Assembly (NCBI RefSeq): GCF_013122565.1
Contig: NZ_CP053258.1
Strand: one strand, 5' to 3'
Source: Escherichia coli
GTDB lineage: Bacteria; Pseudomonadota; Gammaproteobacteria; Enterobacterales; Enterobacteriaceae
Length of the DNA stretch: 64,000 bases
The notes below the pieces were generated by a model, which searched no databases, was not told the DNA's origin, and saw only the letters and a list, made by a program, of their open reading frames with translations. Shown here in pieces: positions 1,754 through 64,000 of the stretch. The position numbers and the translations under genes were made by a program. Numbering within the stretch: position 1 is the first letter of the stretch; each line of letters opens with the position of its first letter.

Positions 1754-3007
1754 ATGTTAAAGCGTGAAATGAACATTGCCGATTATGATGCCGAACTGTG
1801 GCAGGCTATGGAGCAGGAAAAAGTACGTCAGGAAGAGCACATCGAACTGATCGCCTCCGAAAACTACACCAGCCCGCGCGTAATGCAGGCGCAGGGTTCT
1901 CAGCTGACCAACAAATATGCTGAAGGTTATCCGGGCAAACGCTACTACGGCGGTTGCGAGTATGTTGATATTGTTGAACAACTGGCGATCGATCGTGCGA
2001 AAGAACTGTTCGGCGCTGACTACGCTAACGTCCAGCCGCACTCCGGCTCCCAGGCTAACTTTGCGGTCTACACCGCGCTGCTGGAACCAGGTGATACCGT
2101 TCTGGGTATGAACCTGGCGCATGGCGGTCACCTGACTCACGGTTCTCCGGTTAACTTCTCCGGTAAACTGTACAACATCGTTCCTTACGGTATTGATGCT
2201 ACCGGTCATATCGACTACGCCGATCTGGAAAAACAAGCCAAAGAACACAAGCCGAAAATGATTATCGGTGGTTTCTCTGCATATTCCGGCGTGGTTGACT
2301 GGGCGAAAATGCGTGAAATCGCTGACAGCATCGGTGCTTACCTGTTTGTTGATATGGCGCACGTTGCGGGCCTGGTTGCTGCTGGCGTCTACCCGAACCC
2401 GGTTCCTCATGCTCACGTTGTTACTACCACCACTCACAAAACCCTGGCGGGTCCGCGCGGCGGCCTGATCCTGGCGAAAGGTGGTAGCGAAGAGCTGTAC
2501 AAAAAACTGAACTCTGCCGTTTTCCCTGGTGGTCAGGGCGGTCCGTTGATGCACGTAATCGCCGGTAAAGCGGTTGCTCTGAAAGAAGCGATGGAGCCTG
2601 AGTTCAAAACTTACCAGCAGCAGGTCGCTAAAAACGCTAAAGCGATGGTAGAAGTGTTCCTGGAACGCGGCTACAAAGTGGTTTCCGGCGGTACTGATAA
2701 CCATCTGTTCCTGGTTGATCTGGTAGATAAAAACCTGACCGGTAAAGAAGCAGACGCCGCTCTGGGCCGTGCTAACATCACCGTCAACAAAAACAGCGTA
2801 CCGAACGATCCGAAGAGCCCGTTTGTGACCTCCGGTATTCGCGTGGGTACTCCGGCAATTACGCGTCGCGGCTTCAAAGAAGCAGAAGCGAAAGAACTGG
2901 CTGGCTGGATGTGTGACGTGCTGGACAGCATCAATGATGAAGCCGTTATCGAGCGCATCAAAGGTAAAGTTCTCGACATCTGCGCACGTTACCCGGTTTA
3001 CGCATAA
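1754..3007 (+). CDS. glyA: Serine hydroxymethyltransferase
   Basis: ORF translation [22 protein letters not shown]... with PLP-lysine region [14 protein letters not shown]; AGGAG Shine-Dalgarno at 1744-1748; start at second ATG gives 417 aa. Confidence 0.96.
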
Positions 3008-4515: not shown

Positions 4516-7500
4516 ATGACTCCAGTAAAAGTGTGGCAAGAGCGCGTTGAGATCCCGACCTATGAAACCGGGCCGCAGGATATACATCCCATGTTCCTCG
4601 AAAATCGCGTTTATCAGGGATCGTCCGGCGCGGTTTATCCCTACGGCGTGACCGATACGCTGAGCGAGCAGAAAACCCTGAAATCCTGGCAGGCGGTGTG
4701 GCTGGAAAACGACTACATCAAAGTGATGATCCTGCCGGAATTGGGCGGTCGGGTGCATCGAGCATGGGATAAAGTGAAACAGCGCGATTTTGTCTATCAC
4801 AATGAAGTCATTAAACCTGCGCTGGTGGGGCTGCTGGGACCGTGGATCTCCGGCGGGATTGAGTTTAACTGGCCGCAACACCATCGCCCGACCACCTTTA
4901 TGCCCGTTGATTTCACCCTCGAAGCCCATGAAGACGGCGCACAGACGGTGTGGGTAGGCGAAACGGAGCCGATGCATGGTTTACAGGTGATGACAGGTTT
5001 CACCCTGCGCCCTGACCGGGCGGCGCTGGAAATCGCCAGCCGCGTCTATAACGGCAACGCCACGCCGCGTCATTTCTTGTGGTGGGCCAACCCGGCAGTG
5101 AAAGGGGGGGAAGGGCATCAGAGCGTCTTCCCGCCGGATGTAACGGCGGTGTTTGATCACGGCAAACGGGCCGTCTCCGCTTTCCCTATCGCCACCGGCA
5201 CTTACTACAAAGTGGACTACTCCGCTGGAGTGGACATTTCTCGCTATAAAAATGTGCCTGTTCCAACCTCATATATGGCCGAAAAATCGCAGTACGATTT
5301 TGTCGGCGCGTGGTGTCACGATGAAGATGGCGGTTTGCTGCACGTTGCCAACCACCATATTGCGCCAGGTAAAAAACAGTGGAGTTGGGGACACAGTGAA
5401 TTTGGCCAGGCGTGGGATAAGAGCCTAACTGATAATAACGGCCCGTATATCGAACTGATGACCGGTATTTTTGCCGATAACCAGCCCGATTTTACCTGGC
5501 TTGATGCTTACGAAGAGAAGCGTTTTGAGCAGTATTTCCTGCCTTATCATTCTTTGGGCATGGTGCAAAATGCCTCCCGCGATGCGGTGATAAAACTCCA
5601 GCGTAGTGAGCGGGGGATTGAGTGGGGGCTGTATGCCATCTCTCCGTTGAACGGATACCGCCTGGCGATCCGCGAAATCGGCAAATGCAACGCGTTACTT
5701 GATGATGCCGTGGCACTGATGCCTGCGACCGCCATCCAGGGCGTGTTGCACGGTATCAATCCTGAAAGGCTGACCATTGAGCTCTCTGATGCCGACGGCA
5801 ATATTGTACTGAGTTATCAGGAACATCAGCCGCAAGAGTTGCCGTTGCCGGACGTCGCCAAAGCGCCACTGGCAGCACAAGACATTACCAGTACAGATGA
5901 AGCCTGGTTTATCGGTCAGCATCTGGAGCAATATCATCACGCGAGCCGTTCACCGTTCGATTACTACCTGCGCGGCGTGGCGCTGGATCCGCTGGATTAC
6001 CGCTGTAACCTGGCGCTGGCGATGCTGGAGTATAACCGCGCAGATTTCCCGCAAGCGGTGGCGTATGCCACTCAGGCTCTGAAACGCGCACATGCGCTGA
6101 ACAAAAATCCGCAGTGCGGACAGGCGAGTTTGATTCGCGCCAGTGCTTACGAACGTCAGGGACAATATCAACAAGCCGAAGAGGATTTCTGGCGTGCGGT
6201 CTGGAGCGGCAACAGTAAAGCCGGAGGCTATTATGGTCTGGCACGACTGGCGGCGCGTAATGGTAACTTCGACGCGGGTCTGGATTTTTGCCAACAAAGT
6301 CTTCGCGCCTGCCCAACCAATCAGGAAGTGCTTTGCCTGCATAATCTGCTGCTGGTGTTAAGTGGTCGTCAGGACAACGCGCGTTTGCAGCGCGAGAAAC
6401 TGCTGCGCGATTATCCGCTGAACGCCACTCTGTGGTGGCTGAACTGGTTCGATGGTCGTAGCGAATCAGCTCTCGCGCAGTGGCGCGGTCTGTGTCAGGG
6501 ACGCGACGTTAACGCCCTGATGACCGCCGGGCAACTGATTAACTGGGGAATGCCCACCCTGGCGGCAGAGATGCTGAACGCACTGGACTGCCAGCGCACG
6601 CTGCCGCTTTACCTGCAAGCCAGCTTGCTGCCGAAAGCCGAACGTGGCGAACTGGTCGCAAAAGCCATTGATGTCTTCCCGCAGTTTGTCCGTTTCCCGA
6701 ATACGCTGGAAGAAGTGGCGGCGCTGGAGAGTATTGAAGAGTGCTGGTTTGCTCGCCATTTACTGGCCTGCTTCTACTACAACAAACGTAGCTACAACAA
6801 AGCCATTGCCTTATGGCAACGTTGCGAAGAGATGTCGCCGGAGTTTGCCGACGGCTGGCGCGGGTTAGCGATCCATGCGTGGAATAAGCAACACGATTAT
6901 GAGCTGGCCGCGCGTTATCTTGATAATGCTTATCAGCTTGCGCCGCAGGATGCACGTCTGCTTTTCGAACGGGATTTGCTTGATAAGTTAAGTGGAGCCA
7001 CACCGGAGAAACGACTGGCGCGTCTGGAAAATAATCTGGAAATTGCGCTGAAACGCGACGACATGACCGCAGAACTGCTCAATTTGTGGCATCTCACGGG
7101 GCAGGCAGACAAAGCGGCGGACATTCTCGCCACGCGCAAATTCCACCCGTGGGAAGGCGGGGAAGGGAAGGTCACCAGTCAGTTTATCCTCAACCAGTTA
7201 TTACGCGCCTGGCAGCATCTTGATGCCAGACAGCCGCAGCAGGCCAGCGAACTGCTTCATGCCGCGCTGCATTATCCGGAGAATTTAAGCGAAGGCCGTT
7301 TACCGGGGCAAACTGATAACGACATCTGGTTCTGGCAGGCGATATGCGCCAACGCGCAGGGCGATGAAACTGAAGCGACGCGTTGTTTACGTCTGGCGGC
7401 GACTGGCGATCGCACCATTAACATTCACAGTTATTACAACGATCAGCCGGTTGATTATCTCTTCTGGCAAGGAATGGCGCTGCGACTGCTGGGCGAACAA

Positions 7501-34693: not shown

Positions 34694-34793
34694 ACTGTGG
34701 GGTGCCTGCGTTGCTCCGGCAACACAAGCCAACCTGCTGGAAAGGCCGCGAACCAGACCAGCAATAAAAAACCGCCAAATTCGGCGGTTTTTT
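34694..34793 (+). ncRNA. Divergent small RNA (TimR/RyfB-like), copy 3
   Basis: TTGACA (34659-34664), 17-bp spacer, GAGTAT (34682-34687); terminator accgcc...ggcgg plus T6 at 34771-34793; 5-prime cactgtggggtgcctg equals mRNA-leader segment 34531-34546. Confidence 0.45.
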
Positions 34794-34809
34794 ATTGCCT
34801 GTAAAAAGC

Positions 34810-45020: not shown

Positions 45021-45025
45021 TAGCC

Positions 45026-45067
45026 ATTACGCCACGGTTACTTTATGTACCGTGGCGTAATGTTTTA
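45026..45067 (+). terminator. Stem-loop terminator downstream of rlmN
   Basis: 13-bp stem attacgccacggt / accgtggcgtaat, 10-nt loop, followed by gtttta. Confidence 0.55.
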
Positions 45068-52558: not shown

Positions 52559-52767
52559 TATCATCTGAATGTATGGTTTTATCATTTGTATTTAATATAT
52601 AAATGATAAAGCCATCTCTTATTGGTTAAATCACTAGTACATGTGAGTGAAATCATTTTGATAAATTTTTAGGAATATATTTAGTTTTTCTGACGTGCCT
52701 TCCTGAATGTTCTGGCATAGAATATTAGAGCTTATTCATCAAATTATCATTGCCACAGGGAAAGTGC

Positions 52768-54942
52768 ATGCTGCGATGGAGTCGCTTTATAATGTTACTA
52801 TTTATCTCTGCTGCAACTCCTGCGGCAGAGATAAATAGTAAGCAAAATGAATCGTTACCTGATTTAGGCAGCCAGGCGGCTCAACAAGTAGAACAAACGG
52901 ATAAGGGTAAATCGTTAAAAGAGCGTGGAGCCGATTACGTCATCGATTCTGCTACGCAAGGGTTCGAAAACCTGACCCCCGAGGCGCTGGAATCTCAGGC
53001 CAGAAGCTATCTGCAAAGTCAAATCACCTCAACCGCGCAATCTTATATTGAAGAGACACTCTCTCCCTACGGTAAGGTCCGTTCGAATCTCTCTATTGGT
53101 CAAGGTGGCGATCTGGATGGTAGCTCCATCGATTATTTTGTTCCCTGGTATGATAATCAAACGACCGTTTATTTCAGTCAATTTTCTGCGCAACGAAAAG
53201 AGGACCGTACGATCGGGAATATCGGAATTGGAGCAAGACATAATTTCGATGAATGGCTTTTGGGTGGAAATATATTTTACGATTATGATTTCACCCGTGG
53301 GCATCGACGTTTAGGTTTGGGGACAGAGGCCTGGACCAATTATTTAAAATTTTCTGGCAACTATTATCATCCGCTCTCTGACTGGAAAGACTCTGAAGAT
53401 TTCGACTTTTATGAAGAGCGCCCTGCGCGCGGTTGGGATATTCGCGCTGAAGCCTGGTTACCTTCTTATCCGCAACTGGGGGGCAAAATTGTCTTCGAGC
53501 AATATTACGGTGATGAAGTCGCCCTTTTTGGTACGGATAATTTAGAGAAAGATCCCTATGCGGTGACGCTAGGACTGAATTATCAACCGGTACCGTTACT
53601 GACAGTTGGAACGGATTATAAAGCGGGGACAGGAGATAACAGCGATGTCAGCATTAATGCCACTCTTAATTATCAATTCGGCGTTCCGCTAAAAGATCAA
53701 CTCGACAGCAATAAAGTAAAAGCAGCCCACTCGTTGATGGGCAGTCGCCATGATTTTGTCGAGCGTAATAACTTTATCGTCCTGGAATATAAAGAGAAAG
53801 ACCCTCTGGATGTGACGTTGTGGCTGAAAGCGGATGCGACCAACGAGCACCCTGAGTGCGTCATTAAGGACACTCCAGAAGCGGCGATCGGGCTGGAAAA
53901 ATGTAAGTGGACCATTAACGCACTGATCAATCACCACTACAAAATTGTCGCTGCGTCATGGCAGGCGAAAAACAATGCCGCCCGCACGCTGGTGATGCCG
54001 GTCATCAAAGAAAATACCATCACTGAAGGCAACAACAACCACTGGAATCTGATACTGCCAGCCTGGCAGTACAGCTCTGACAAAGCCGAGCAGGAAAAAC
54101 TCAACACCTGGCGGGTACGGCTGGCGCTGGAAGATGAAAAGGGTAATCGGCAAAACTCCGGCCTGGTTGAGATCACCGTTCAGCAGGACCGTAAAATTGA
54201 GCTGACCGTCAATAACATTGCTGATGTGCCTGATGAGAATAACCACAGCCATGAAGCCAGCGCTCAGGCGGATGGCGTTGATGGTGTGGTCATGGACCTC
54301 GAGGTGACGGACAGTTTTGGCGATAACACGGACCGCAACGGTGATGCTCTGCCAGAAGATAATCTTGCACCGCAGCTCTACGACGCTCAGGACAAAAAAG
54401 TCACGCTAACCAATAAACCCTGCTCGACCGACAACCCCTGCGTGTTTATTGCCAAACAAGATAAAGAAAAGGGAACGGTAACCCTCTCCAGTACATTGCC
54501 AGGCGTTTTCCGCTGGAAAGCGAAAGCGGCTCCCTACGATGACAGTAACTATGTGGATGTCACGTTTATTGGATCTGATATCGGCGGGCTTAATGCTTTC
54601 ATTTACCGGCTTGGGGGAGCGAAGCCAGTCAATTTGATCGGCAATGATAAAGACCCCCTGCCGCTGGGCAACACGTACCGATTTGTGTTGTGGCGTGATG
54701 CCAACAAAGACGGCGTTTTTCAGCAGTCGGAAAAACTAACCGATGAAGAGATGACTCAGTACGACTACAAGTGGGAATTTACCGGCAAGAGCATCAATGG
54801 CGAAGTAGGTGCGCAGGCGAACACATCCAATGCAGACATTGTAATACCGGCGACCAACCGTGAAGCGGCGCAATCCTATGGTGCAAAAGTGGAAGATGGC
54901 TTGCAGGGTTACGGTTTACGCGTGCTGTACACCAAAAAATAA
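52768..54942 (+). CDS. sinH: Intimin/invasin-family outer membrane protein (inverse autotransporter), SinH-like
   Basis: Signal peptide MLRWSRFIMLLFISAATPAAE; central region aligns by eye with the invasin/intimin beta-barrel domain (…EAWTNYLKFSGNYYHP…ERPARGWDIRAEAWLPSYPQLGGKIVFEQYYGDEVALFG…RNNFIVLEYKE); ATG at 52768 (track ORF starts at upstream TTG). Confidence 0.8.
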   Translation: MLRWSRFIMLLFISAATPAAEINSKQNESLPDLGSQAAQQVEQTDKGKSLKERGADYVIDSATQGFENLTPEALESQARSYLQSQITSTAQSYIEETLSPYGKVRSNLSIGQGGDLDGSSIDYFVPWYDNQTTVYFSQFSAQRKEDRTIGNIGIGARHNFDEWLLGGNIFYDYDFTRGHRRLGLGTEAWTNYLKFSGNYYHPLSDWKDSEDFDFYEERPARGWDIRAEAWLPSYPQLGGKIVFEQYYGDEVALFGTDNLEKDPYAVTLGLNYQPVPLLTVGTDYKAGTGDNSDVSINATLNYQFGVPLKDQLDSNKVKAAHSLMGSRHDFVERNNFIVLEYKEKDPLDVTLWLKADATNEHPECVIKDTPEAAIGLEKCKWTINALINHHYKIVAASWQAKNNAARTLVMPVIKENTITEGNNNHWNLILPAWQYSSDKAEQEKLNTWRVRLALEDEKGNRQNSGLVEITVQQDRKIELTVNNIADVPDENNHSHEASAQADGVDGVVMDLEVTDSFGDNTDRNGDALPEDNLAPQLYDAQDKKVTLTNKPCSTDNPCVFIAKQDKEKGTVTLSSTLPGVFRWKAKAAPYDDSNYVDVTFIGSDIGGLNAFIYRLGGAKPVNLIGNDKDPLPLGNTYRFVLWRDANKDGVFQQSEKLTDEEMTQYDYKWEFTGKSINGEVGAQANTSNADIVIPATNREAAQSYGAKVEDGLQGYGLRVLYTKK

Positions 54943-54996: not shown

Positions 54997-55974
54997 ATGA
55001 AGCAGGACAAAAGACGCGGTCTGACCCGGATCGCATTGGCGCTGGCACTGGCTGGTTACTGCGTGACGCCCCTGGCGCTGGCGGAAGACAGCGCGTGGAT
55101 CGACAGCGGCGAGACCAATATTTTCCAGGGGACTATTCCGTGGCTCTACCCCGTTGATGAAGATGAGGTAACTGGCGCGGGTCGGGTGACGTTAACCTCT
55201 GACTATAAAGGTACTCGTCCGTCGGGAAGTACATCCGACAAGCGTATGTACTCTGGCGACAAATTAACGCTCAGTTGGGTGATTGGCGATACTGAAGGCG
55301 ACGTCGATCTTGGTACGGCGGGTAAAGATGCAAAAACCATCGACACCATCCGCTGGATGAGCTACAAGGACGCCCAGGGTGGCGATCCGAAAGAGCTGGC
55401 AACAAAGGTGACCACTTACACCCTTACCGATGCCGACCGTGGTCGTTATATCGGTATTGAAATTACCCCAACCACCCAGACGGGTACGCCATACGTTGGG
55501 ACTGCGCTGCATCTTTATGATGTTTCGAATGCTAACGGCGGGGGAAGCGATAAAGATAACGTTGATCCAGGACCGGTAGTTAACCAGAACCTGAAAGTCG
55601 CCATCTTTGTTAAAGACACCTCGACTAACCTCATTAACGGTAGTACGCCAATCCAGTTGGGCAAAACGTACGTCGCCAAACTGTACTCGGATGAGAACAA
55701 AAACGGTCAGTATGACGCAGGTACTGACGTTGATGTTACCGCCAATTACGACTTCCGTTGGGTTCTTTCTGACACCAGCGATCAGCTCGGTACGGGGGGC
55801 GGCATTGTTAACTCAAGCTTCGATAATCAAAACCTGGTCATCCCTGCGACCAACGACGAAGCCAGAACCAACCTTAACGGCCCTGCTCGTGATGGCAAAG
55901 ATGCCCTTGCGATCCCGACCAACGGCGATGGGGTTCAGGGTTACAAACTGCAGATTATCTACAAACACAAATAA
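54997..55974 (+). CDS. sinI: Secreted protein with SinH-like C-terminal domain, SinI-like
   Basis: Signal peptide MKQDKRRGLTRIALALALAGYCVTPLALA; C-terminus (…LVIPATNDEA…DGVQGYKLQIIYKHK) parallels the SinH C-terminus (…IVIPATNREA…DGLQGYGLRVLYTKK). Confidence 0.7.
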   Translation: MKQDKRRGLTRIALALALAGYCVTPLALAEDSAWIDSGETNIFQGTIPWLYPVDEDEVTGAGRVTLTSDYKGTRPSGSTSDKRMYSGDKLTLSWVIGDTEGDVDLGTAGKDAKTIDTIRWMSYKDAQGGDPKELATKVTTYTLTDADRGRYIGIEITPTTQTGTPYVGTALHLYDVSNANGGGSDKDNVDPGPVVNQNLKVAIFVKDTSTNLINGSTPIQLGKTYVAKLYSDENKNGQYDAGTDVDVTANYDFRWVLSDTSDQLGTGGGIVNSSFDNQNLVIPATNDEARTNLNGPARDGKDALAIPTNGDGVQGYKLQIIYKHK

Positions 55975-55983
55975 CACTTGCTC

Positions 55984-56011
55984 AACAGCATTCCCGCAAG
56001 GGAATGCTGTT
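55984..56011 (+). terminator. Terminator-like hairpin downstream of sinI
   Basis: 12-bp stem aacagcattccc / gggaatgctgtt with GCAA loop, followed by T-rich tccgcatatttt. Confidence 0.6.
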
Positions 56012-56015
56012 TCCG

Positions 56016-56050
56016 CATATTTTGCTTAATCCAGGATTAAGCAAAATATG
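56016..56050. promoter_or_regulatory. Perfect 35-bp palindrome upstream of ratA (candidate operator or attenuator)
   Basis: catattttgcttaatcc-a-ggattaagcaaaatatg: 17-bp arms with no mismatches, 45 bp upstream of the ratA ATG. Confidence 0.4.
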
Positions 56051-56094
56051 TTGATGCGGTAACCGTTCGTTAAATAACTGGTGGAGTTCTTTTC

Positions 56095-59000
56095 ATGTCC
56101 CAGCCCCTGAAACCCGGCACTTTTTATGTTCTGCTTGTATTGCTGCTAACCGCAATGCTGCCGGGATGGTCATGGGCGGGCTCATCATGGCAAGACTCAT
56201 CCGATACGGCGGGTGAATTTAACGGTACCGTCCCCAATGCCGACAGCGCCAGTATGCCGGTTTATCAGGGCAGTATTTGGCTTGATCCTGCAAAGCCCCA
56301 TGATGTTTCGTTTTCCGCTAAACCCAATGAATTTAGCGTTAATCTGGATGTGTCGAAGCTGATTGTGACGAACCCGCAGGACCTGGAAGGCGATGTGTTT
56401 ACCAACCCGCGTTGGGAAAACCAAACGCCGCCAGTGGTCTCTTTAGTCTGGGCGGATGCGGCGACACCGGAAACCCCACTTAATCCTCAGCCAGTGGCTG
56501 GGCGTTCCTTTTGTGCGCAAGGGCTTGCCGGGCGTTCGCTGGTTGTCTGGCCGCAGCCAGACCCACAGCAGACCATGCCGCAGCTTTATCTACGCACCTC
56601 GACAGGTTATCCCTATGAAAGTCTTCTGACGCTTGTCGATAAGAAAGTGACGTTAAATATTGCACCGGCCCAGGGCGACTTAATTTCTGTCAGCGCGGCC
56701 GGTTATGACGACACCGTGGGCGGGGCGAAAACTACCGTTGGCGGCAATATCACGTTGACCGTTACCACCAAAGACTGCAGCGGTAACGTTGCCGGAAATA
56801 TTCCTTTTATTATCAAACGCAAAGATGCTGAAAACCGACAGGGCGCAGTCAACAATGCTTCGCCGGTTGTTCTGGACAAAACTGAACTGACCACTATCGC
56901 GACCGAATATCACAGCACCACGGATGCGAACGGCGTTGCGACGATCACGGTCACGCAACCCAACGGCCCTGGTGTAAAAACGCCGCTGGTAGCCAGTCTT
57001 TCAGGTATTGGTCAAACCAGTGAAACGGCAGTGATCTTTACCGTCCTTACCAGCCCGGATGTCCCTCAAGCCATGATGTGGGGCCATATGCCCGATACGC
57101 TAAAGGCCCATGATTATACGTTCAGTCGGCCAAAACTGGCGGCGGAGGTCGATAACGAAAATGGTACCGTTAACGATCACAATGAAACCTGGTCTACCTT
57201 CACCTGGAATGGTGCGGATAAACATTGCGACATTTTGCCTGGTATGCGCCAGTTTGGCGCGTTGGCAACGGTGGTGCCCACGACAGTTCAGGATCTCGTT
57301 GGTTGGCCGATACAGGGTAACTACTACTGGTCATCACTGGCGGGGATGACCGGACAGCACCATGCGGCGGATGTTTCCAACCGTAGCGAAGCGCAAAAAC
57401 CGGACGATACGACGTTTATTGTCAGTTGTGTCGATAAAGACGCTCCTGACGTTGAACCGAAACTGGTGCTAACACCGGGAAGCTATGATTCGACGTTAAA
57501 GGCGATGAAAGTAAAGGTGGGGGAAGAAGCGTCTCTGCGTGTAACCATCACCGATAATAAAAACAATAATCAACCGCTGGCGTATTACTACTTTTCGTTA
57601 CATCTGGATGACGGCATCAACCGTAAAAATCAATCGGATGCGGCATGGGAAGCGCATCCGGTGCAGATAGCGGGTGGCAGCAATGTCCATCAGGTTGACG
57701 CGCATACCTATGAAGGCATTACGGATGTGAACGGTCAGGCATCACTGACGCTAACGCAACCGGGCGGCGCGGGCGTGAAAACACACATTACTGCGAAAAT
57801 GCGCAGCGACTTCACCACGTCGGATGAGAAAGACGTGATTTTTACAGTCATTACCAGCCCCGATACTGACAAAGCCCGGATGTGGGGGCATATGCAGGGT
57901 ATTATTGATTCTAATAATATCTTTAAACGTCCACGGCTGGCAGATGAAACCGACCATGAACTCGATTCAGTGCGAGAGAACAACGAAGACTGGGCGCTGT
58001 TCGACCAAAATGGCAGCATGCAGGCTGAATGTGGTGTAGGTCATATTCCGAGCCAGAATCAATTACAGGGTCTGTTCACGGCGCATCCTGGCAATGCGAT
58101 TGGCACCGAATATGGCTGGCCGACGGCGCAAAAAGATTACCTTAGTGCGGTACAACAAGAGCCACACTCCTCCGTGAACCTGGGCACAGGTAACATCGAC
58201 ACCTATTCAGGCTTTAAGCAGAACTATCTCTCCTGTTCCGGTAATGAGATGGTTGCTCAGATTACCGCAACGACCGATCATGACGTTTCCGTGGGTAGCA
58301 GGGCGCAGGCTAAAGTTGGAGAAACCGTCACCATGACGGTGCATACCTTCAATGCACTGAATAATGCGCCCGTGCCGTTTACCGCCTTCAGCATCACAAA
58401 GGAGATGGGTAAAAACCGTCAGGGGCAGACTACCGGATATACCGATCCGACGAGTGGCGCAATTGAGATGAATGGCAAGCTCTACGGAACATCCCAGGCC
58501 TCGGTGGTTTATTCCGGGACTACGGATGCACAGGGCTACGCAACGGTGGAGATTGAACAACCGCAGGGCGTGGGCTTAGCGACGCCGCTAAATATTGCGC
58601 CTGTGAACTCCTACATTCCCAATACAGTAAATTACAACGTGATTTTCACCACGCCTACCAGCCCGGATGCGGTGGCGGCGCAGATGTGGGGGCATATGGA
58701 TGAGACTATTACAGTCGATTCTTTAACCTTCACCCGGCCTAAACTGGCAGCGGAAGTTTCCAGCCCGGATGCGACATTGACAGAAAATAATGAAGTCTGG
58801 GCGCGTGTGAGTCAGGCGAATACATCCAGTATAAGTAAAGGTGGCTGCGGAGCGAATATGCTGCCGCGTCGATCCCAGCTTAGCGCGCTCTATGATGCCA
58901 ATAACGGTAATGCTGTACAGACAGTACACGGCTGGCCAACTCTGCGTGAGCCTTACTGGAGTAGTTCCCCTGCGGATAAAGTTCCTCATTTTTACACCAT

Positions 59001-62000
59001 TGCTCTCAATGATGGCGCACAGGCTATTGGCGGTAGCAACGCGGTTTATGTCAGCTGCCTGACGACGGCAAATAATCCTGCAAACGCTATTACTTTAGAG
59101 GTGGTGGATCAGGCGCAATGGAACGCGACGGCGAAAGCGGCGAAGCTGAAAAAAGGCGAAACGCTCCAGGTTAAGGTAACGGTGAAGGATGCTCAGGGCA
59201 ATGCACTGTCGGATATGCCATTCACCCTGAAACGTGGCGATGGTTATACTCGCTCAAATGAAAAACATATTGCTGGCAGCGGGGATGCGCTGGTTGCGCC
59301 AGTCATCGTCAACGGTGGCCTGACGGATGAGACTTCACTGAATGACACCGCGACAGCATACGCTACCATGACCGGCAGCGACGGCACTAAAATACTTACC
59401 ATAACCCGCCCTGAGACGCATGGCACCAAAACGGCGCTGATCGCTGCGCTGTATTCTGATGCAACGAAAAACGCCAGCCTCGACACCATTTTTACCGTTG
59501 CGACCAGCCCGGACAGCGATAAGGCGAAAATGTGGGGGCACATGGCGGAAACGGTGACGGCTACTGACGGCACGGTATTTAAACGCCCGCGCTTACTGAA
59601 AGAGTGGTCAACTCAGTCCTCTCTTACTGAAGATAATGAGGTCTGGGGGTTGTATAACATCAGCGATGCAAAATCTACCAGCAATGGCTGTGGCGCTAAT
59701 TATGTTCCTGCGCAGGTTGGGCTGGAGTCACTGTTTGACAATAACCGCAGCAACGCGATGAAAACCGTACAAGGTTGGCCGGTAGATACCCATTATCTTT
59801 CAAATACCTCAAGTACCGACAGTTTATCGCAGCATAATTACAAAGCCGTGGATCTGGGCAATGGTACCAGTACCTCAATATCCGCTTCCGAGAGGAAGTT
59901 GTTAACCTGCCAGACGACCGCGGTGTTACAGGCAAGCCAGATTCTGCTGGACGCAGCGGATCCAACCACCTTCGACAGCACAAATAATGTTGTCAAAGTT
60001 AAAAAAGGCGAAGCGGCAGTGGTGCGTGTAACCACGAAGGATTCGCAGGGGAATCCTGTAGGAAATACCGCATTTACCCTCAAACGAAACCACAGCGTGA
60101 ACAGGGCTAATGCGTCGAATACCACGTCGATTGCTTCACTGGTGGTAACGGATGCATGGGGAAATACTCAGGACAGTTTTCTTTCAACGTCCCTGGTCAT
60201 ATATGGCGTAACGGGGGCCGATGGCACCACCACCTTTACACTGAAACAAGACCAGTCTACCGGCTTAAAAACGGAACTCACGGCAGCGCTGGACTCCTCC
60301 AGCAGCATTACATCGTCGCTTCCCGTCGTCTTTACGGTGCTTACCAGCCCGGATTCGCCAAAAGCCAAATTCTGGGGGCATATGGCTGAAACGGCGACAG
60401 GCGATGACGGTCTCATTTATAAAAGACCATTGCTGAGAGACGAGATTAGCGCCTCTAGCGGTATCAGCACCCTGACAGAAGAGGGGGAAAACTGGTCTGC
60501 ATTCTGGGCGAACAATGCTAATGATACTTCGATAAGTGGTTGTGGCGCAGAGTATGTTCCCTCTGCCGATGAACTTAAGGCCATTTATGCGCACCAGGGG
60601 GGGAGCGCATTGCATGGTGCTATTGGCTGGCCAGTTTCGAAGCCCTATATCTCGAATACCGTCGCAGATATGTTCACTCAACCCTTTAAGTTTGATGTCG
60701 TTTCGCTGAAGACAGGAGATGAAACACAGATTTCATCAGGTAGTGGTGTAGGGCCTCTGAGTTGCCGGACCACACCTGTCGCCGTTGCCAGTCAGATCAT
60801 TGTTGAGGCGAACGATGCGGCGCAATTTGTCAAAGTTGACGATACCTTGAGTGCACTGAAAGTGAAAAAAGGTGAAGACGCGGTGATTCGCGTGGTGACC
60901 AAGGATGCGCAGGGGAATACCGTGCCCAATGTTCCCTTTATTCTCAAGCGCGAGGGCTCGAGAAACCGTCAAAATGTCGAGATGATAAACAAATCGATTA
61001 CGGTGATTAACGCGGCAGGGACTTCTACGAATGTGCTTAGTTCGTCAACACTGCTTTATGGGGTAACGGGCGCGGACGGGACTACCACGTTTACAGTAAA
61101 ACAAGATGATTCTATGGGTCTGATGACCAATATGTACGCTCAGTTGTATCAGTCGACGATAGAATCCAACAAATTACCGGTGATGTTTACCGTTATAACC
61201 AGCCCGGATACGCCTCTGGCAAACTACTGGGGGCATATGTCTGAAACCTTCACGACAAGGTCGGGGGTTGTCTTCAAGCGGCCAATGCTTAGTGCCGAGC
61301 ATCCAGCGGGGCAGTCAACCGTGGATAATAATGAAACCTGGCTTTCCTTGAATACAGCAGCAAAAAATGATGTCAGCAAATCAGGCTGTGACGAACCTTA
61401 TCAACCGTTATTAAGCGAACTTCAGGAGTTGTACAGTGAACATCCTAATGGTGCGATAGGAACCGATTTAGGCCTGCCGCTGACGAAAACCTGGTGGGCT
61501 TACGATAAAGTGGCCAACTCGAATGCCTGGTACGATCAGTCTGTTAATTTGTCGAATGGGTCAAGCGCCAGGGCGTCGTCAACCACCGTGGCGTTTGTGC
61601 CCTGTCTGGTAAACCCTCATCCAGTGGCTGCTTCTATTGAGATAACCTCCACGGCACTGGATGCGGAGAAAACGGCCAGTAACGATGGTCGCCCCAGCGC
61701 AACCGCACCGAAAGGTACGGCGATCCGGATGACGGTGATTGTGCGGGATAGCGCAGGAAATCCATTGCCCGGCGCCAACTTTAACCTCGTACGCGGGACG
61801 GCATTGGATCGTGCAAAATACAGTGTCGATAGTTCAGCTGATGATCTTACTCTCGTGCCTGTCACGCCTGCTGGCGTAAATATGACTCTCACGAGTAATA
61901 CATCAAAAGCACTGTTGACGACAGGCAGTGATGGTAAAGTGACCTTTGATGTGACGCAAAACGGGACTTATGGGCTGGCAACCCCGCTCACTGCAACATT

Positions 62001-64000
62001 GCTACGCGACACTTCAATAAGCGCCACGATGGATGTCATTTTCACGGTGATAACCAGTCCCGACTCACCGAAAGCAAAATACTGGGGTCATATGCCCGAC
62101 ACGTTTACCAGCAGTGCGGGGGTGACCTTTAAACGGCCGCTACTGGCAGCCGAAGCGACCTCCGGGTCCTCGGTTGGCAGTAATAATGAGTCGTGGTCAT
62201 ACATTGGTATTAACGAAAGAGCTACGTCGGATTGCTCACTGGAGTATCAGCCGCGTCTTAATGAGTTACAGGGGTTATATAACGATCATCCTGGCGGGGC
62301 CATACAGACGGATCTGGGGTTACCTGTAGCTGCCGGAAGTGGAAACTGGTGGGCTTATGAAATGAGTATGCCTAACCCCAGCGGGTCGGTGTGGTTTTAC
62401 GGCATCATTAATTTGAAAACGGGACAATCGTCGACCACGTCGAGTGGATTCGCTTTAATGCTCTGCCTGACGCAGCCGCATACGGTACCGGCAAGCCTTA
62501 CACTGTCATCAACCGCCTACGATGAAGGCAGAACCGCCAGCAATGGTGGCACACCTACGTCATCTGTGAAAAAAGGTGAGACGCTTCCCTTAGTGGTGAC
62601 GATCAAAGATGCCAATGGTAACCCCGTTGGCGGCGAAGGCGTTACGCTCAAGCGCGCGCAGGCGAAAAGCCGTTCAGGTATCTCTGTCTCCCCCACTACC
62701 GCCGATGATCTTATTTTAAATGAAGTCACACCGGAATCAGCCAGCTTTTCCTTCGCCGCGGATTTGGCATCATGGAGCGGCATCACCGGCAGTGACGGCA
62801 CTGTAACGTTCAATATTACACAAAAAAATACAATCGGCCTGGTAACGCCGTTTACAGCCTCATTGGGGCGAAATCCGCAGGTCACCGCCAACCAGGACCT
62901 GATGTTCACGGTGGTAACCAGCCCGGATTCGCCGAAGGCAAACTACTGGGGGCATATGCCAGCAACCTTGACGGCAGTGAATGGTGCGGTATTTGAACGC
63001 CCGAAATTGTGGAGTGAACTGCCATCGACCTCCGGCGTCGGCAAGATCAATAACAATAATGAGGACTGGCCGTACTATTCACCGACAAAAAAATCTGATG
63101 AGAGTGTGACCCCTTGCGAAGTGGCAAGACAGCCTCTGCTTAGTGATTTAAATTCGCTGTCTGCGCGTTATCCGAATAACTCCTTCGCTGCTGAAACGGG
63201 CTGGTCTGTGTATTACACCTGGTGGGCAGAGGATAAATCCGCCGCGGGTAAAGATCAGTCGGTGGATTTGAGAGATGGCACGCTGTATACGTATGCATCA
63301 GGAGCATTTCAACCTTGCCTGGTTAACGCGCGTTCAACTGTTTCTAGCGTCACACTTACCTCAACGGCGTTTGACGCTACCACTCAGGCGGCGAAAGTGA
63401 AAAAAGGCGAAGCCATGCCGGTGACGGTCACGGTGAAAGACAGCGCCGGGAAAACGGTGCCGAATGTGGCTTTTACCCTGAAACGCGGTGATGCTGCGCC
63501 AAGAAACCCTGGTATGGCCTTGTACGGTGATGTGGATGCGATGGATGACCTGACCGTTCAACCGACATCGGGAGCGGCGGTGACGTGGTCTGAAAGTGGC
63601 AACTTGCTACAGGGGACCACTGGCTCTGACGGCACCGCGACGTTTATGATTAAACAGGATCATTCGCCGGGCTATAAAACCCCTTTGACGGTCACGTTGG
63701 ACAATAACACCAGCATCACTGCGACAATGGACGCTATTTTCACCGTCGTGACCAGCCCGAATGTCTCAAGCGCCTATTACTGGGGGCACATGGCAGATAC
63801 GACCACGGTGAACGGTAAAACACTGCATCGCCCGTTGTTGGCATCGGAGCTACCTGCGAATGCTTCTTCCCCAGCCACGCCTGACGTAAACAATGAAGCC
63901 TGGGCTATGGGGCATATGGTGGATTCAAGGAATTGGGATATCGAGGCGCAGTGTGGCAGCTTGACCAACGCGCCAAACGATGACGACTTAATGGGTCTGT
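56095..64000 (+). CDS. ratA: Giant repetitive surface/secreted protein, RatA-like; 3-prime end beyond window
   Basis: ATG at 56095 preceded by GGTGGAG; signal-peptide-like N-terminus [28 protein letters not shown]; the frame has no listed ORF (no in-window stop) and every repeat landmark checked lies in this frame; synteny after sinH-sinI. Confidence 0.8.
57049..64000 (+). repeat. In-frame tandem repeats within ratA (~805-865 bp, ~270-290 aa each, at least 9 copies)
   Basis: Motif accagcccggat (TSPD) followed ~30 nt later by tgggg(g)ca(t/c)atg (WGHM) recurs at 57049, 57853, 58657, 59503, 60343, 61198, 62053, 62917 and 63751. Confidence 0.9.

What the first reader, a model, noticed from the sequence alone, without database searches (positions are those of the whole stretch)
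56016..56050. Perfect 17-bp-arm palindrome immediately upstream of ratA
catattttgcttaatcc-a-ggattaagcaaaatatg sits between the sinI terminator hairpin and the ratA ribosome-binding site. A mismatch-free inverted repeat of this length is unlikely by chance in an AT-moderate spacer and suggests a dimeric regulator operator or an attenuator controlling ratA separately from sinHI.
Basis: seen in the sequence. Interest (0 to 1): 0.4.

Follow-up and report, generated by a model that had tools for sequence, protein, structure and literature searches.

The report
Conserved RNA hairpin upstream of ratA
The perfect palindrome is real, but it is most likely not a protein-binding DNA site: it is the local version of an RNA stem-loop, conserved from Escherichia to Salmonella and Citrobacter, that sits in the messenger RNA just ahead of the giant adhesin gene ratA and probably tunes its expression after transcription.

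Summary
Observation confirmed. Arms 56016-56032 and 56034-56050 are 17 nt, 100% complementary, with 1 nt between them. This is the longest perfect inverted repeat in the window (4e-5 expected by chance).

It is not a dispersed repeat. It occurs at one locus in 946 of 5,426 E. coli genomes, always between sinI and the ratA-like gene, and never in phages or true plasmids.

The same module follows sinI in Escherichia, Salmonella, Citrobacter, Pseudocitrobacter, Superficieibacter and Kluyvera, although SinI is only about 40-45% identical. The module is a terminator-like hairpin, UUUUCCG, 5 variable bases, UUUGCUUA, an 8-26-nt centre, UAAGCAAA, 5 variable bases, then UUGA.

- The outer pairs covary: 8 of 16 pairs changed on both sides and 93.5% of cells are paired.
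- Mismatches are strand-biased: 49 G·U against 5 A·C on the + strand.
- The + strand RNA is more stable in 25 of 29 versions.

This points to a 17-22-bp RNA hairpin in the sinH-sinI-ratA transcript rather than a DNA operator. The invariant 8-bp core and stem base suggest recognition by a specific factor. The mechanism is inferred only: processing or stability control, with RNase III as the lead candidate. No Rfam family or paper describes it.

The parts
52750..54942 (+). sinH, an intimin-like inverse autotransporter and first gene of the operon
   Evidence: ORF. NCBIfam NF033423 inverse_SinH, 1465 bits against a cutoff of 999.
54997..55974 (+). sinI, a SinI-family autotransporter-associated protein
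   Evidence: ORF. NCBIfam NF040711 partner_SinI, 322 bits against a cutoff of 165.
55984..56011 (+). Hairpin 1: 12-bp stem with a GCAA loop. It is terminator-like, followed by U3 here and U4-5 in most relatives.
   Evidence: I2, 100% complementary. RNAalifold on 19 orthologues keeps 10 pairs, several with compensatory changes, for example CG:8 UA:7 AU:2 GC:1. The tool's stricter terminator scan did not call it.
56009..56015 (+). Conserved linker GUUUCCG (UUUUCCG in most relatives). UCCG forms the 5' side of the hairpin-2 base.
   Evidence: Nearly invariant columns in A3. It pairs with UUGA in the consensus fold as U-A, C-G, a C·U mismatch and G·U. The C of the C·U mismatch is A (giving A-U) in four versions. 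The linker stays next to hairpin 2 when about 50 nt are inserted after hairpin 1 in L028.
56016..56050 (+). The reported palindrome, which is the main stem of hairpin 2. It comprises outer pairs 56016-56020/56046-56050, the invariant core, and a self-complementary centre 56029-56037.
   Evidence: Covariation and strand bias.
56021..56028 (+). Invariant core, 5' arm: TTTGCTTA (UUUGCUUA)
   Evidence: Consensus pair kept in 227 of 232 core cells across 29 distinct versions. One departure is compensated, G-C to A-U in E. albertii.
56038..56045 (+). Invariant core, 3' arm: TAAGCAAA (UAAGCAAA)
56051..56054 (+). Conserved TTGA (UUGA), the 3' side of the hairpin-2 base
   Evidence: T43, G45 invariant and T44, A46 nearly invariant in A3 numbering. 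Paired with UCCG.
56080..56086 (+). Shine-Dalgarno sequence GGTGGAG of the ratA-like gene. It is not paired with hairpin 2 in the consensus structure.
   Evidence: Sequence. The alignment shows GGTGGA/CTGGAG/CGGGTGG at the same place, and no conserved pairing.
56095..64000 (+). ratA-like giant adhesin ORF with BIg21/InvE_AD repeats, open to the end of the window (more than 2,635 codons)
   Evidence: no stop. NCBIfam PRK15316 RatA-like, 2142 bits on the first 1000 aa. Pfam BIg21 and InvE_AD.

Best explanation
The palindrome is the DNA image of a conserved cis-acting RNA stem-loop, called hairpin 2 here. It has 17-22 base pairs and folds at about -21 kcal/mol. It lies in the intercistronic leader of the ratA-like gene within a sinH-sinI-ratA transcript, directly after a terminator-like hairpin that closes sinI.

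Shown:
- The hairpin is conserved, single-copy and specific to the sinI-ratA junction.
- Its outer pairs covary.
- Selection acts on the + (sense) strand.
- An 8-bp core (UUUGCUUA/UAAGCAAA) and the stem base (UCCG/UUGA) are almost invariant.

Inferred:
- Hairpin 1 with its short U-tract lets only part of the transcription continue into ratA.
- Hairpin 2 then acts after transcription on the read-through RNA to set RatA output separately from SinH and SinI.
- The invariant core suggests recognition by a specific factor rather than structure alone.

My preferred mechanism is a processing or stability determinant. One form is cleavage of the roughly 20-bp helix by a double-strand-specific nuclease such as RNase III. 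The other is cleavage in the U-rich linker that leaves hairpin 2 as a protective 5' end for the very long ratA message.
For: - Conservation: the same module follows sinI in 29 distinct versions from Escherichia, Salmonella enterica and bongori, Citrobacter, Pseudocitrobacter, Superficieibacter, Kluyvera and unnamed Enterobacteriaceae. SinI proteins are only about 40-47% identical to the window's.
- Local contrast: within E. coli the 73-nt block carrying both hairpins differs from the window at 1 base, while the surrounding 501 nt are about 84% identical.
- Pairing: 93.5% of cells are paired against 33-47% with slid partners. Eight of 16 pairs changed on both sides, giving 50 compensatory cells. 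No shuffle of 500 reached the covariation score.
- Strand: 49 G·U against 5 A·C on the + strand, binomial p = 4e-10. The + strand RNA is more stable than the - strand in 25 of 29 versions, mean -21.3 against -16.7 kcal/mol, Wilcoxon p = 1.3e-5. A covariance model scores true sites 64-69 bits on + and 28-36 bits on -.
- Loop behaviour: the centre varies in sequence and length (8, 9, 11, 26 nt) while the arms persist.
- Sequence-specific part: the core keeps its consensus pair in 227 of 232 cells against 75 of 145 for the outer five pairs.
- Association with ratA: the module is present where a BIg21/InvE_AD adhesin follows. It is absent in Buttiauxella, where a short Big_2 protein follows, and in Lelliottia. 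It is also absent from the ratA-ratB junction.
- Length: MFE stems of 17-22 bp, median 19, match the size of double-strand-nuclease substrates (established knowledge of RNase III).
Against: - No transcript data were available, so co-transcription of sinI and ratA, read-through of hairpin 1 and any cleavage are unproven.
- The 29 sequences are phylogenetically related, so the shuffle and binomial statistics overstate independence.
- Strict conservation of a double-stranded core is unusual for RNase III sites, which have weak sequence rules. A 5'-protective hairpin would not need a fixed sequence either. The specific mechanism therefore explains the structure better than it explains the invariance.
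- An invariant inverted repeat with mostly 8-9 nt between half-sites is also what a DNA-binding dimer would conserve.
- In the window and the main E. coli lineage the palindrome is perfect, so those sequences alone cannot tell the strands apart.
Confidence: 0.6

Rival explanations
1. DNA operator. A dimeric transcription factor binds TTTGCTTA-N9-TAAGCAAA on double-stranded DNA and represses or activates ratA.
For: The two 8-bp half-sites are nearly invariant, and the spacing is 8-9 nt in 26 of 29 versions. The arrangement fits the generic T-N11-A dyad of LysR-type sites (own knowledge, not tested).
Against: - Pairs outside the half-sites covary, which a protein touching only the core would not require.
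- Mismatches are 49 G·U against 5 A·C, an asymmetry that has no meaning on duplex DNA.
- The centre is 26 nt in E. albertii and 11 nt in two others, with the arms kept.
- No sigma-70-like promoter lies in 55700-56400. The Shine-Dalgarno sequence is too close for TTGA to serve as a -35 element.
- No regulator gene is in the island.
- No second site was found in the window or related loci.
Confidence: 0.1
2. Structure-only element. The hairpin has no specific partner. It acts as a barrier to exonucleases or reduces free RNA on which Rho could load in the 120-nt untranslated gap before an 8-kb gene.
For: The hairpin is stable in every lineage, -13 to -28 kcal/mol. Leminorella has a different-sequence hairpin (UUUUGAAAA...UUUUCAAAG) at the same position before a giant ORF, which suggests structure is the older requirement.
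Against: Structure alone does not explain why six of eight core pairs never change, while neighbouring pairs pass freely through G·U to compensated pairs. It also does not explain why UCCG and UUGA, with a fixed C·U mismatch, are kept.
Confidence: 0.15
3. Classical attenuator or riboswitch-like switch. Hairpin 2 competes with hairpin 1 or with the ribosome-binding site to switch ratA on or off.
For: Two adjacent hairpins lie in a leader, the first terminator-like. The U-rich and CC-rich linker could in principle pair with GG-rich Shine-Dalgarno sequences.
Against: - The consensus fold shows two independent, non-overlapping helices and no conserved alternative pairing with the terminator or the Shine-Dalgarno sequence.
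- Hairpin 2 lies downstream of the termination point of hairpin 1, so it cannot prevent that termination.
- No U-run follows hairpin 2.
- The spacer to the Shine-Dalgarno sequence is variable, 17-40 nt.
- No Rfam match was found.
Confidence: 0.08
4. Relic or target of a mobile element, or a single-stranded or cruciform DNA structure (REP/MITE-like, recombination site).
For: It is a perfect palindrome in an island of horizontally acquired adhesin genes. Insertions occur right beside it: a Mu-like prophage in UPEC129 and REP-like DNA in Escherichia sp. E1V33.
Against: - One locus per genome in 946 E. coli genomes and none elsewhere.
- No phage match, and only two 'plasmid' records that are 4.9-Mb chromosomes.
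- Metagenome hits to the core are unrelated contexts, except five with sinI-ratA flanks.
- A cruciform would not show strand-biased wobble.
Confidence: 0.03

Closest known systems
Intercistronic stem-loops that give differential expression within adhesin or fimbrial operons (for example papB-papA mRNA processing, daa operon cleavage; own knowledge)
   Same: Located between cistrons of an adhesin operon. A partial terminator-like hairpin is followed by a stable stem-loop ahead of the downstream gene. The presumed role is to uncouple the amounts of upstream and downstream products.
   Different: No processing site or transcript ends are known here. The hairpin has an invariant 8-bp core and a fixed stem base, which those elements are not known to need.
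RNase III processing hairpins (T7 R1.1, rpsO-pnp, rnc leader; own knowledge)
   Same: A helix of about 20 bp, mostly uninterrupted, with one small internal mismatch. It is AU-rich and lies in an untranslated intercistronic region.
   Different: Cleavage is untested. RNase III substrates show only weak sequence preferences, whereas this core is fixed across genera.
Palindromic operators of dimeric regulators (generic LysR-type T-N11-A dyads; SlyA site TTAGCAAGCTAA; own knowledge)
   Same: Inverted 8-bp half-sites with a spacer of about 9 bp.
   Different: Strand-biased G·U, covariation outside the half-sites, spacer expansion to 26 nt, no nearby promoter, and no sequence identity to those sites.
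Cis-acting anti-termination signals for long operons (HK022 put RNA, Bacillus EAR, RfaH ops; own knowledge)
   Same: Two adjacent stem-loops with sequence-constrained stems, located just upstream of an unusually long gene.
   Different: No sequence resemblance. No ops match near the operon. Hairpin 1 looks like a terminator rather than part of an RNA polymerase-binding fold. Nothing was tested functionally.
REP/BIME and other intergenic palindromic repeat families
   Same: An intergenic palindrome able to form an RNA hairpin after a gene.
   Different: Single copy per genome and tied to one gene junction.

Membership tests
Dimeric transcription-factor operator (DNA palindrome) | Two conserved inverted half-sites | tested here: met
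   TTTGCTTA / TAAGCAAA are nearly invariant in 29 versions.
Dimeric transcription-factor operator (DNA palindrome) | Fixed half-site spacing in all functional orthologues | tested here: not met
   The centre is 8 or 9 nt in 26 versions, but 11 nt in two and 26 nt in E. albertii, with the arms retained.
Dimeric transcription-factor operator (DNA palindrome) | Constraint acts on duplex DNA, so there should be no strand bias in tolerated mismatches and no need for pairing outside the contacted bases | tested here: not met
   49 G·U against 5 A·C on the + strand. The five outer pairs covary. The + strand RNA is more stable in 25 of 29 versions.
Dimeric transcription-factor operator (DNA palindrome) | Overlaps or adjoins a promoter that it controls | tested here: not met
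   No sigma-70-like site in 55700-56400. Other promoter types are not covered by the scan.
Dimeric transcription-factor operator (DNA palindrome) | A cognate DNA-binding protein | not testable with these tools
   No regulator gene lies within the island. Binding needs experiments.
Intrinsic (Rho-independent) terminator, applied to the palindrome itself | G+C-rich stem followed directly by a U-run | tested here: not met
   The stem is AU-rich and is followed by GUUGAUG / GUUGAAn. It was not called by the scan. In contrast, the other long palindromes in the window at 34761-34798 and 45025-45062 are textbook terminators.
Dispersed palindromic repeat family (REP/BIME/ERIC/MITE) | Many copies per genome in unrelated intergenic sites | tested here: not met
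   One locus per genome in 946 of 5,426 E. coli genomes and none in the rest. One per related locus. No phage match, and only two chromosome-sized 'plasmid' records. Isolated 17-nt half-sites would escape BLAST, so only copies of roughly 25 nt or more are excluded genome-wide.
Transcription attenuator with alternative pairings | Mutually exclusive terminator and antiterminator helices sharing bases | tested here: not met
   The RNAalifold consensus has two separate helices with no shared bases and no conserved alternative.
Shine-Dalgarno-sequestering element (RNA thermometer or translational operator) | The ribosome-binding site lies inside the conserved helix | tested here: not met
   The Shine-Dalgarno sequence is 17-40 nt downstream of the helix and unpaired in the consensus.
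RNase III substrate hairpin | About two turns (roughly 20 bp) of mostly continuous double-stranded RNA | tested here: met
   MFE stems of 17-22 bp, median 19. There are 21 pairs in the window's MFE fold, with small interruptions at the stem base (the conserved C·U mismatch among them).
RNase III substrate hairpin | Staggered double-strand cleavage in vivo that depends on rnc | not testable with these tools
   No transcript-end data are available.
Any described RNA family (Rfam 15) | Match to a curated covariance model | tested here: not met
   Only sub-threshold chance hits (19 bits or less) for the window and for the Salmonella orthologue.
Conserved cis-regulatory mRNA stem-loop (generic kind) | Orthologous position, conserved pairing with compensatory changes, and sense-strand specificity | tested here: met

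The most novel reading that the evidence does not exclude
Hairpin 2, with its invariant UUUGCUUA/UAAGCAAA core and its UCCG/UUGA base carrying a fixed C·U mismatch, is the docking site of a dedicated, still unknown RNA-binding factor. Alternatively, together with hairpin 1 it acts directly on RNA polymerase as a put-like anti-termination RNA. Either way it would form a specific switch that decides whether the 8-kb ratA adhesin gene is expressed in Salmonella, pathogenic E. coli and Citrobacter.
Probability: 0.15. Interest if true: 0.65.

Novelty: new member of a known kind. Interest (0 to 1): 0.45.

Why it matters
RatA, SinH and SinI belong to a gut-colonisation island of Salmonella (CS54) and to a locus enriched in extraintestinal pathogenic E. 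coli. How these genes are regulated is essentially undescribed in the papers I could search. A deeply conserved, single-copy RNA element with a sequence-fixed core, placed exactly at the boundary between the transporter genes and the giant adhesin, gives a concrete and easily mutated handle on that regulation. It is also a candidate new RNA motif, with no Rfam family. It is nevertheless one more cis-acting mRNA hairpin, a well-known kind of element, and its effect size is unknown.

Tried and rejected
- Dispersed repeat: rejected.
- Known RNA family: no Rfam match for the window or the Salmonella orthologue.
- Promoter built from the arms or from the conserved TTGA: no scan hit. By eye, the hexamers are poor and not conserved, and the Shine-Dalgarno sequence would lie upstream of any transcription start from a TTGA -35. 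An extended -10-like TGGTATTTT in Salmonella hairpin 1 is not conserved in other genera.
- Sigma-54 promoter (TTGCT as a -12 element): the -24 position reads TTCCGC, not TGGCAC. The published sigma-54 site in LT2 sinH is intragenic and unrelated.
- RfaH ops: no exact match in the window, and none of the one-mismatch hits is in the operon leader.
- CsrA site: GGA sits in the loop only in the E. coli lineage and is not conserved.
- IHF, CRP, FNR, RcsB and SlyA consensus sequences were compared from memory. None matched convincingly, and none was tested formally.
- Mini-ORF ATG-TTG-ATG-CGG-TAA (56048-56062): not conserved in relatives.
- Second copy upstream of ratB, at sinH-sinI or upstream of sinH: none.
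- Metagenome scan for the core: over 120 hits, but nearly all are unrelated chance contexts, so it was of little use beyond one extra variant, L122.
- Literature searches for sinH/sinI/ratA regulation, locus tags and the sequence itself: nothing relevant.

Full report
**1. The observation**

The window carries sinH (52750-54942), sinI (54997-55974) and a ratA-like ORF. The ORF starts at ATG 56095 and stays open to the end of the window.

In the 120-nt gap, the repeat finder reports a 12-bp GCAA-loop hairpin at 55984-56011. Four bases later it reports the palindrome: arms 56016-56032 and 56034-56050, 17 nt, 100% complementary, one base between them.

It is the longest perfect inverted repeat in the 64 kb, where 4e-5 are expected from base composition. 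The half-site has no other copy in the window at up to 3 mismatches.

**2. Not a dispersed repeat, not mobile**

A 55-nt query around the element was run with blastn at E ≤ 10 against 5,426 complete E. coli genomes. It hit 946 genomes, each at a single locus; the two 'places' per genome are the two strands of the palindrome. The locus is always intergenic between the SinI-family gene and the adhesin gene.

There is no phage match. The only 'plasmid' matches are two 4.9-Mb records, evidently chromosomes. In all related loci fetched, the motif occurs once, at the sinI-ratA junction. It does not occur upstream of sinH, between sinH and sinI, or between ratA and ratB of Salmonella.

One caveat applies. 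BLAST cannot see an isolated 17-nt half-site in 28 Gb, so only copies of roughly 25 nt or more are excluded genome-wide.

**3. Conservation**

The window is 99.4% identical to 'E. coli' MB53 and only about 84% identical to the main E. coli sinI-ratA lineage over 501 nt. Yet the 73-nt block carrying both hairpins differs at only the central base.

A divergent sinH-sinI-adhesin locus in EPEC E2348/69 has the same layout with changed sequences. Hairpin 1 is rebuilt with a UUCG loop. The second hairpin reads ATACTTTGCTTAAT-CAACC-ATTAAGCAAAGTAT, a compensated T>C/A>G change.

More loci came from a SinI alignment searched against one genome per species and from exact-protein look-ups. They cover:
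- Escherichia, including E. albertii and E. whittamii
- Salmonella enterica, salamae and bongori
- Citrobacter, Pseudocitrobacter, Superficieibacter and Kluyvera
- unnamed Enterobacteriaceae

SinI is 40-47% identical to the window's protein in most of these. All carry one module:
- hairpin 1
- UUUUCCG
- five variable bases
- UUUGCUUA
- a variable centre (8-9 nt in 26 of 29 versions, 11 nt in two, 26 nt in E. albertii)
- UAAGCAAA
- five variable bases
- UUGA
- a variable, often A-rich spacer of 17-40 nt
- the Shine-Dalgarno sequence and ATG

The window's 17-bp perfection arises because its centre (ATCC-A-GGAT) is itself self-complementary. That part is lineage-specific.

**4. RNA, not DNA**

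On the 29-sequence alignment A3, the 16-pair helix has 93.5% of cells paired, against 33-47% when partners are slid by 1-3 columns. Eight pairs changed on both sides, giving 50 compensatory cells. No shuffle of 500 reached the observed covariation score.

The non-Watson-Crick cells are strongly strand-biased: 49 G·U against 5 A·C when read on the + strand (29 against 2 in the outer five pairs; binomial p = 4e-10). On duplex DNA or in a cruciform, a G·T on one strand is an A·C on the other, so this bias only makes sense for a single-stranded + strand molecule. That molecule would be the sense transcript of sinI and ratA.

Two further results agree:
- The + strand RNA is more stable than the - strand RNA in 25 of 29 versions. 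Means are -21.3 and -16.7 kcal/mol, Wilcoxon p = 1.3e-5. S. bongori, for example, gives -20.6 against -10.8.
- A covariance model built from A3 scores true sites 64-69 bits on the + strand and 28-36 bits on the - strand. Chance occurrences of the bare core in metagenomes score at most 27 bits.

The sequences are related, so these statistics overstate independence. Even so, the many different pair types per column show repeated events (for example UA:14 CG:10 UG:5).

RNAalifold over the whole gap recovers hairpin 1 with 10 pairs, several of them compensated. It extends hairpin 2 at its base by pairing the conserved flanks UCCG and UUGA as U-A, C-G, a C·U mismatch and G·U. In four versions the mismatched C is A, giving an A-U pair. 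Total stem length is 17-22 bp, median 19. No conserved pairing involves the Shine-Dalgarno sequence or competes with hairpin 1.

**5. More than structure**

The outer five pairs keep their consensus pair in only 75 of 145 cells. The eight core pairs keep theirs in 227 of 232. One of the five departures is a compensated G-C to A-U in E. albertii.

Six of the eight core pairs are A-U or U-A and could drift through G·U, as their neighbours do. Their constancy, together with that of the stem base, argues for sequence-specific recognition or a second, unseen constraint. In Leminorella, the most distant locus with a giant downstream ORF, a hairpin of different sequence (UUUUGAAAA...UUUUCAAAG) sits at the same place. 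This suggests that structure is the older requirement and the fixed core a feature of the Escherichia-Salmonella-Citrobacter group.

**6. Association with ratA**

The module is present wherever a BIg21/InvE_AD repeat adhesin follows sinI, whether that adhesin is 760 aa or more than 2,600 aa. It is absent in Buttiauxella, where a 388-420-aa Big_2 protein follows, and in Lelliottia.

**7. Mechanism**

The following are shown:
- a conserved, sense-strand RNA hairpin at a fixed operon position
- a terminator-like hairpin with only a 3-5 U tail directly before it
- no promoter-like site
- no alternative pairings

The rest is inferred. Hairpin 1 probably ends or stabilises most sinH-sinI transcripts. 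RNA that reads through carries hairpin 2, which then governs the fate of the ratA message.

Several features favour a processing or stability determinant over a translational operator, attenuator or thermometer:
- The helix is about 20 bp long.
- It is AU-rich and has a small internal mismatch.
- It lies in an intercistronic gap.
- It does not contain the ribosome-binding site.

This function has two possible forms. One is RNase III-type cleavage. The other is cleavage in the U-rich linker, leaving a 5'-terminal protective hairpin. Neither explains the invariant core well, so a dedicated binding factor remains open. I put about 0.85 on 'selected RNA hairpin in the sense transcript'. I put about 0.6 on 'post-transcriptional cis-control of ratA' and about 0.3 on the nuclease-based version.

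**8. Comparison with known systems and novelty**

The closest analogues are:
- intercistronic hairpins of fimbrial and adhesin operons
- RNase III processing sites
- more remotely, cis-acting anti-termination RNAs of long operons

The element fails the tests for a DNA operator, an intrinsic terminator, a dispersed repeat, a classical attenuator and a Shine-Dalgarno-sequestering element (see the membership table). No Rfam model matches the window or the Salmonella orthologue. Full-text searches for the genes, locus tags and the sequence itself found nothing on this element. The one structural paper on the family (PMC4943183) discusses SinH/SinI/RatA as a ZirTSU-like translocator-substrate operon, without mention of RNA elements.

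I class it as a new member of a known kind: an undescribed, conserved cis-acting mRNA hairpin.

**9. Verdict**

'Separate control of ratA' is plausible, but at the RNA level. Interest is moderate (0.45): a well-supported candidate RNA motif in a virulence locus with unexplained sequence invariance, but of a familiar type and without functional data.

Noticed in passing
L004 (E. coli UPEC129, NZ_CP071522) about 2449-3000; equivalent to window 55986/55987: A Mu-like prophage (Mor activator, gp16-family genes) is inserted at the left edge of hairpin 1. It clips the hairpin's 5' arm and separates sinI from ratA, while hairpin 2 and ratA stay intact.
   Followed up: partly
L011 (Escherichia sp. E1V33) about 4560-4770; L028 (Escherichia sp. 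MOD1-EC7003) about 5385-5430: E1V33 has REP-like DNA inserted after hairpin 1, with a second partial copy of the hairpin-1 3' half before UCUCCG. MOD1-EC7003 has about 50 extra nt between hairpin 1 and UUCCG. In both, UCCG and hairpin 2 stay together.
   Followed up: partly
L022 (Leminorella grimontii) about 5455-5520: At the position of hairpin 2 there is a different palindrome (GTTTTGAAAAG ... CTATTTTTCAAAGC) enclosing a small inner hairpin, ahead of a giant ORF. It may be an analogue with another sequence. The covariance model does not detect it.
   Followed up: partly
window 34761-34798 and 45025-45062: These are the two next-longest perfect inverted repeats in the window (16-bp and 14-bp arms). 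Both look like ordinary intrinsic terminators. The first is bidirectional, with A-run and T-run flanks around GC-rich CCGCC/GGCGG. The second is followed by TTTTATG.
   Followed up: partly
L001 (E. coli MB53, NZ_CP073939) 3296 onward, against window 56095-64000: In the near-identical genome MB53 the ratA-like gene is annotated as a pseudogene with an internal stop. In the window the frame is open for all 2,635 codons available.
   Followed up: no
L034, L036, L042, L063, L074, L093, L116, L118, L128 (human-gut metagenome contigs): An unrelated recurrent element, ...CTCTTTCATCA-TTTGCTTATGAAAGTAATAAGCAAA-GCAGAGGGCTAA, shares the 8-bp core by chance. Its context is different and unexamined.
   Followed up: no
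window 56048-56062: A mini-ORF, ATG TTG ATG CGG TAA, overlaps the 3' end of hairpin 2. It is not conserved in relatives.
   Followed up: yes
window 56009-56018 / 56054-56063: A window-specific outer inverted repeat, GTTTCCGCAT / ATGCGGTAAC (90% complementary), offers an alternative register for the stem base (CCGCAU with AUGCGG). It is absent from other lineages.
   Followed up: partly
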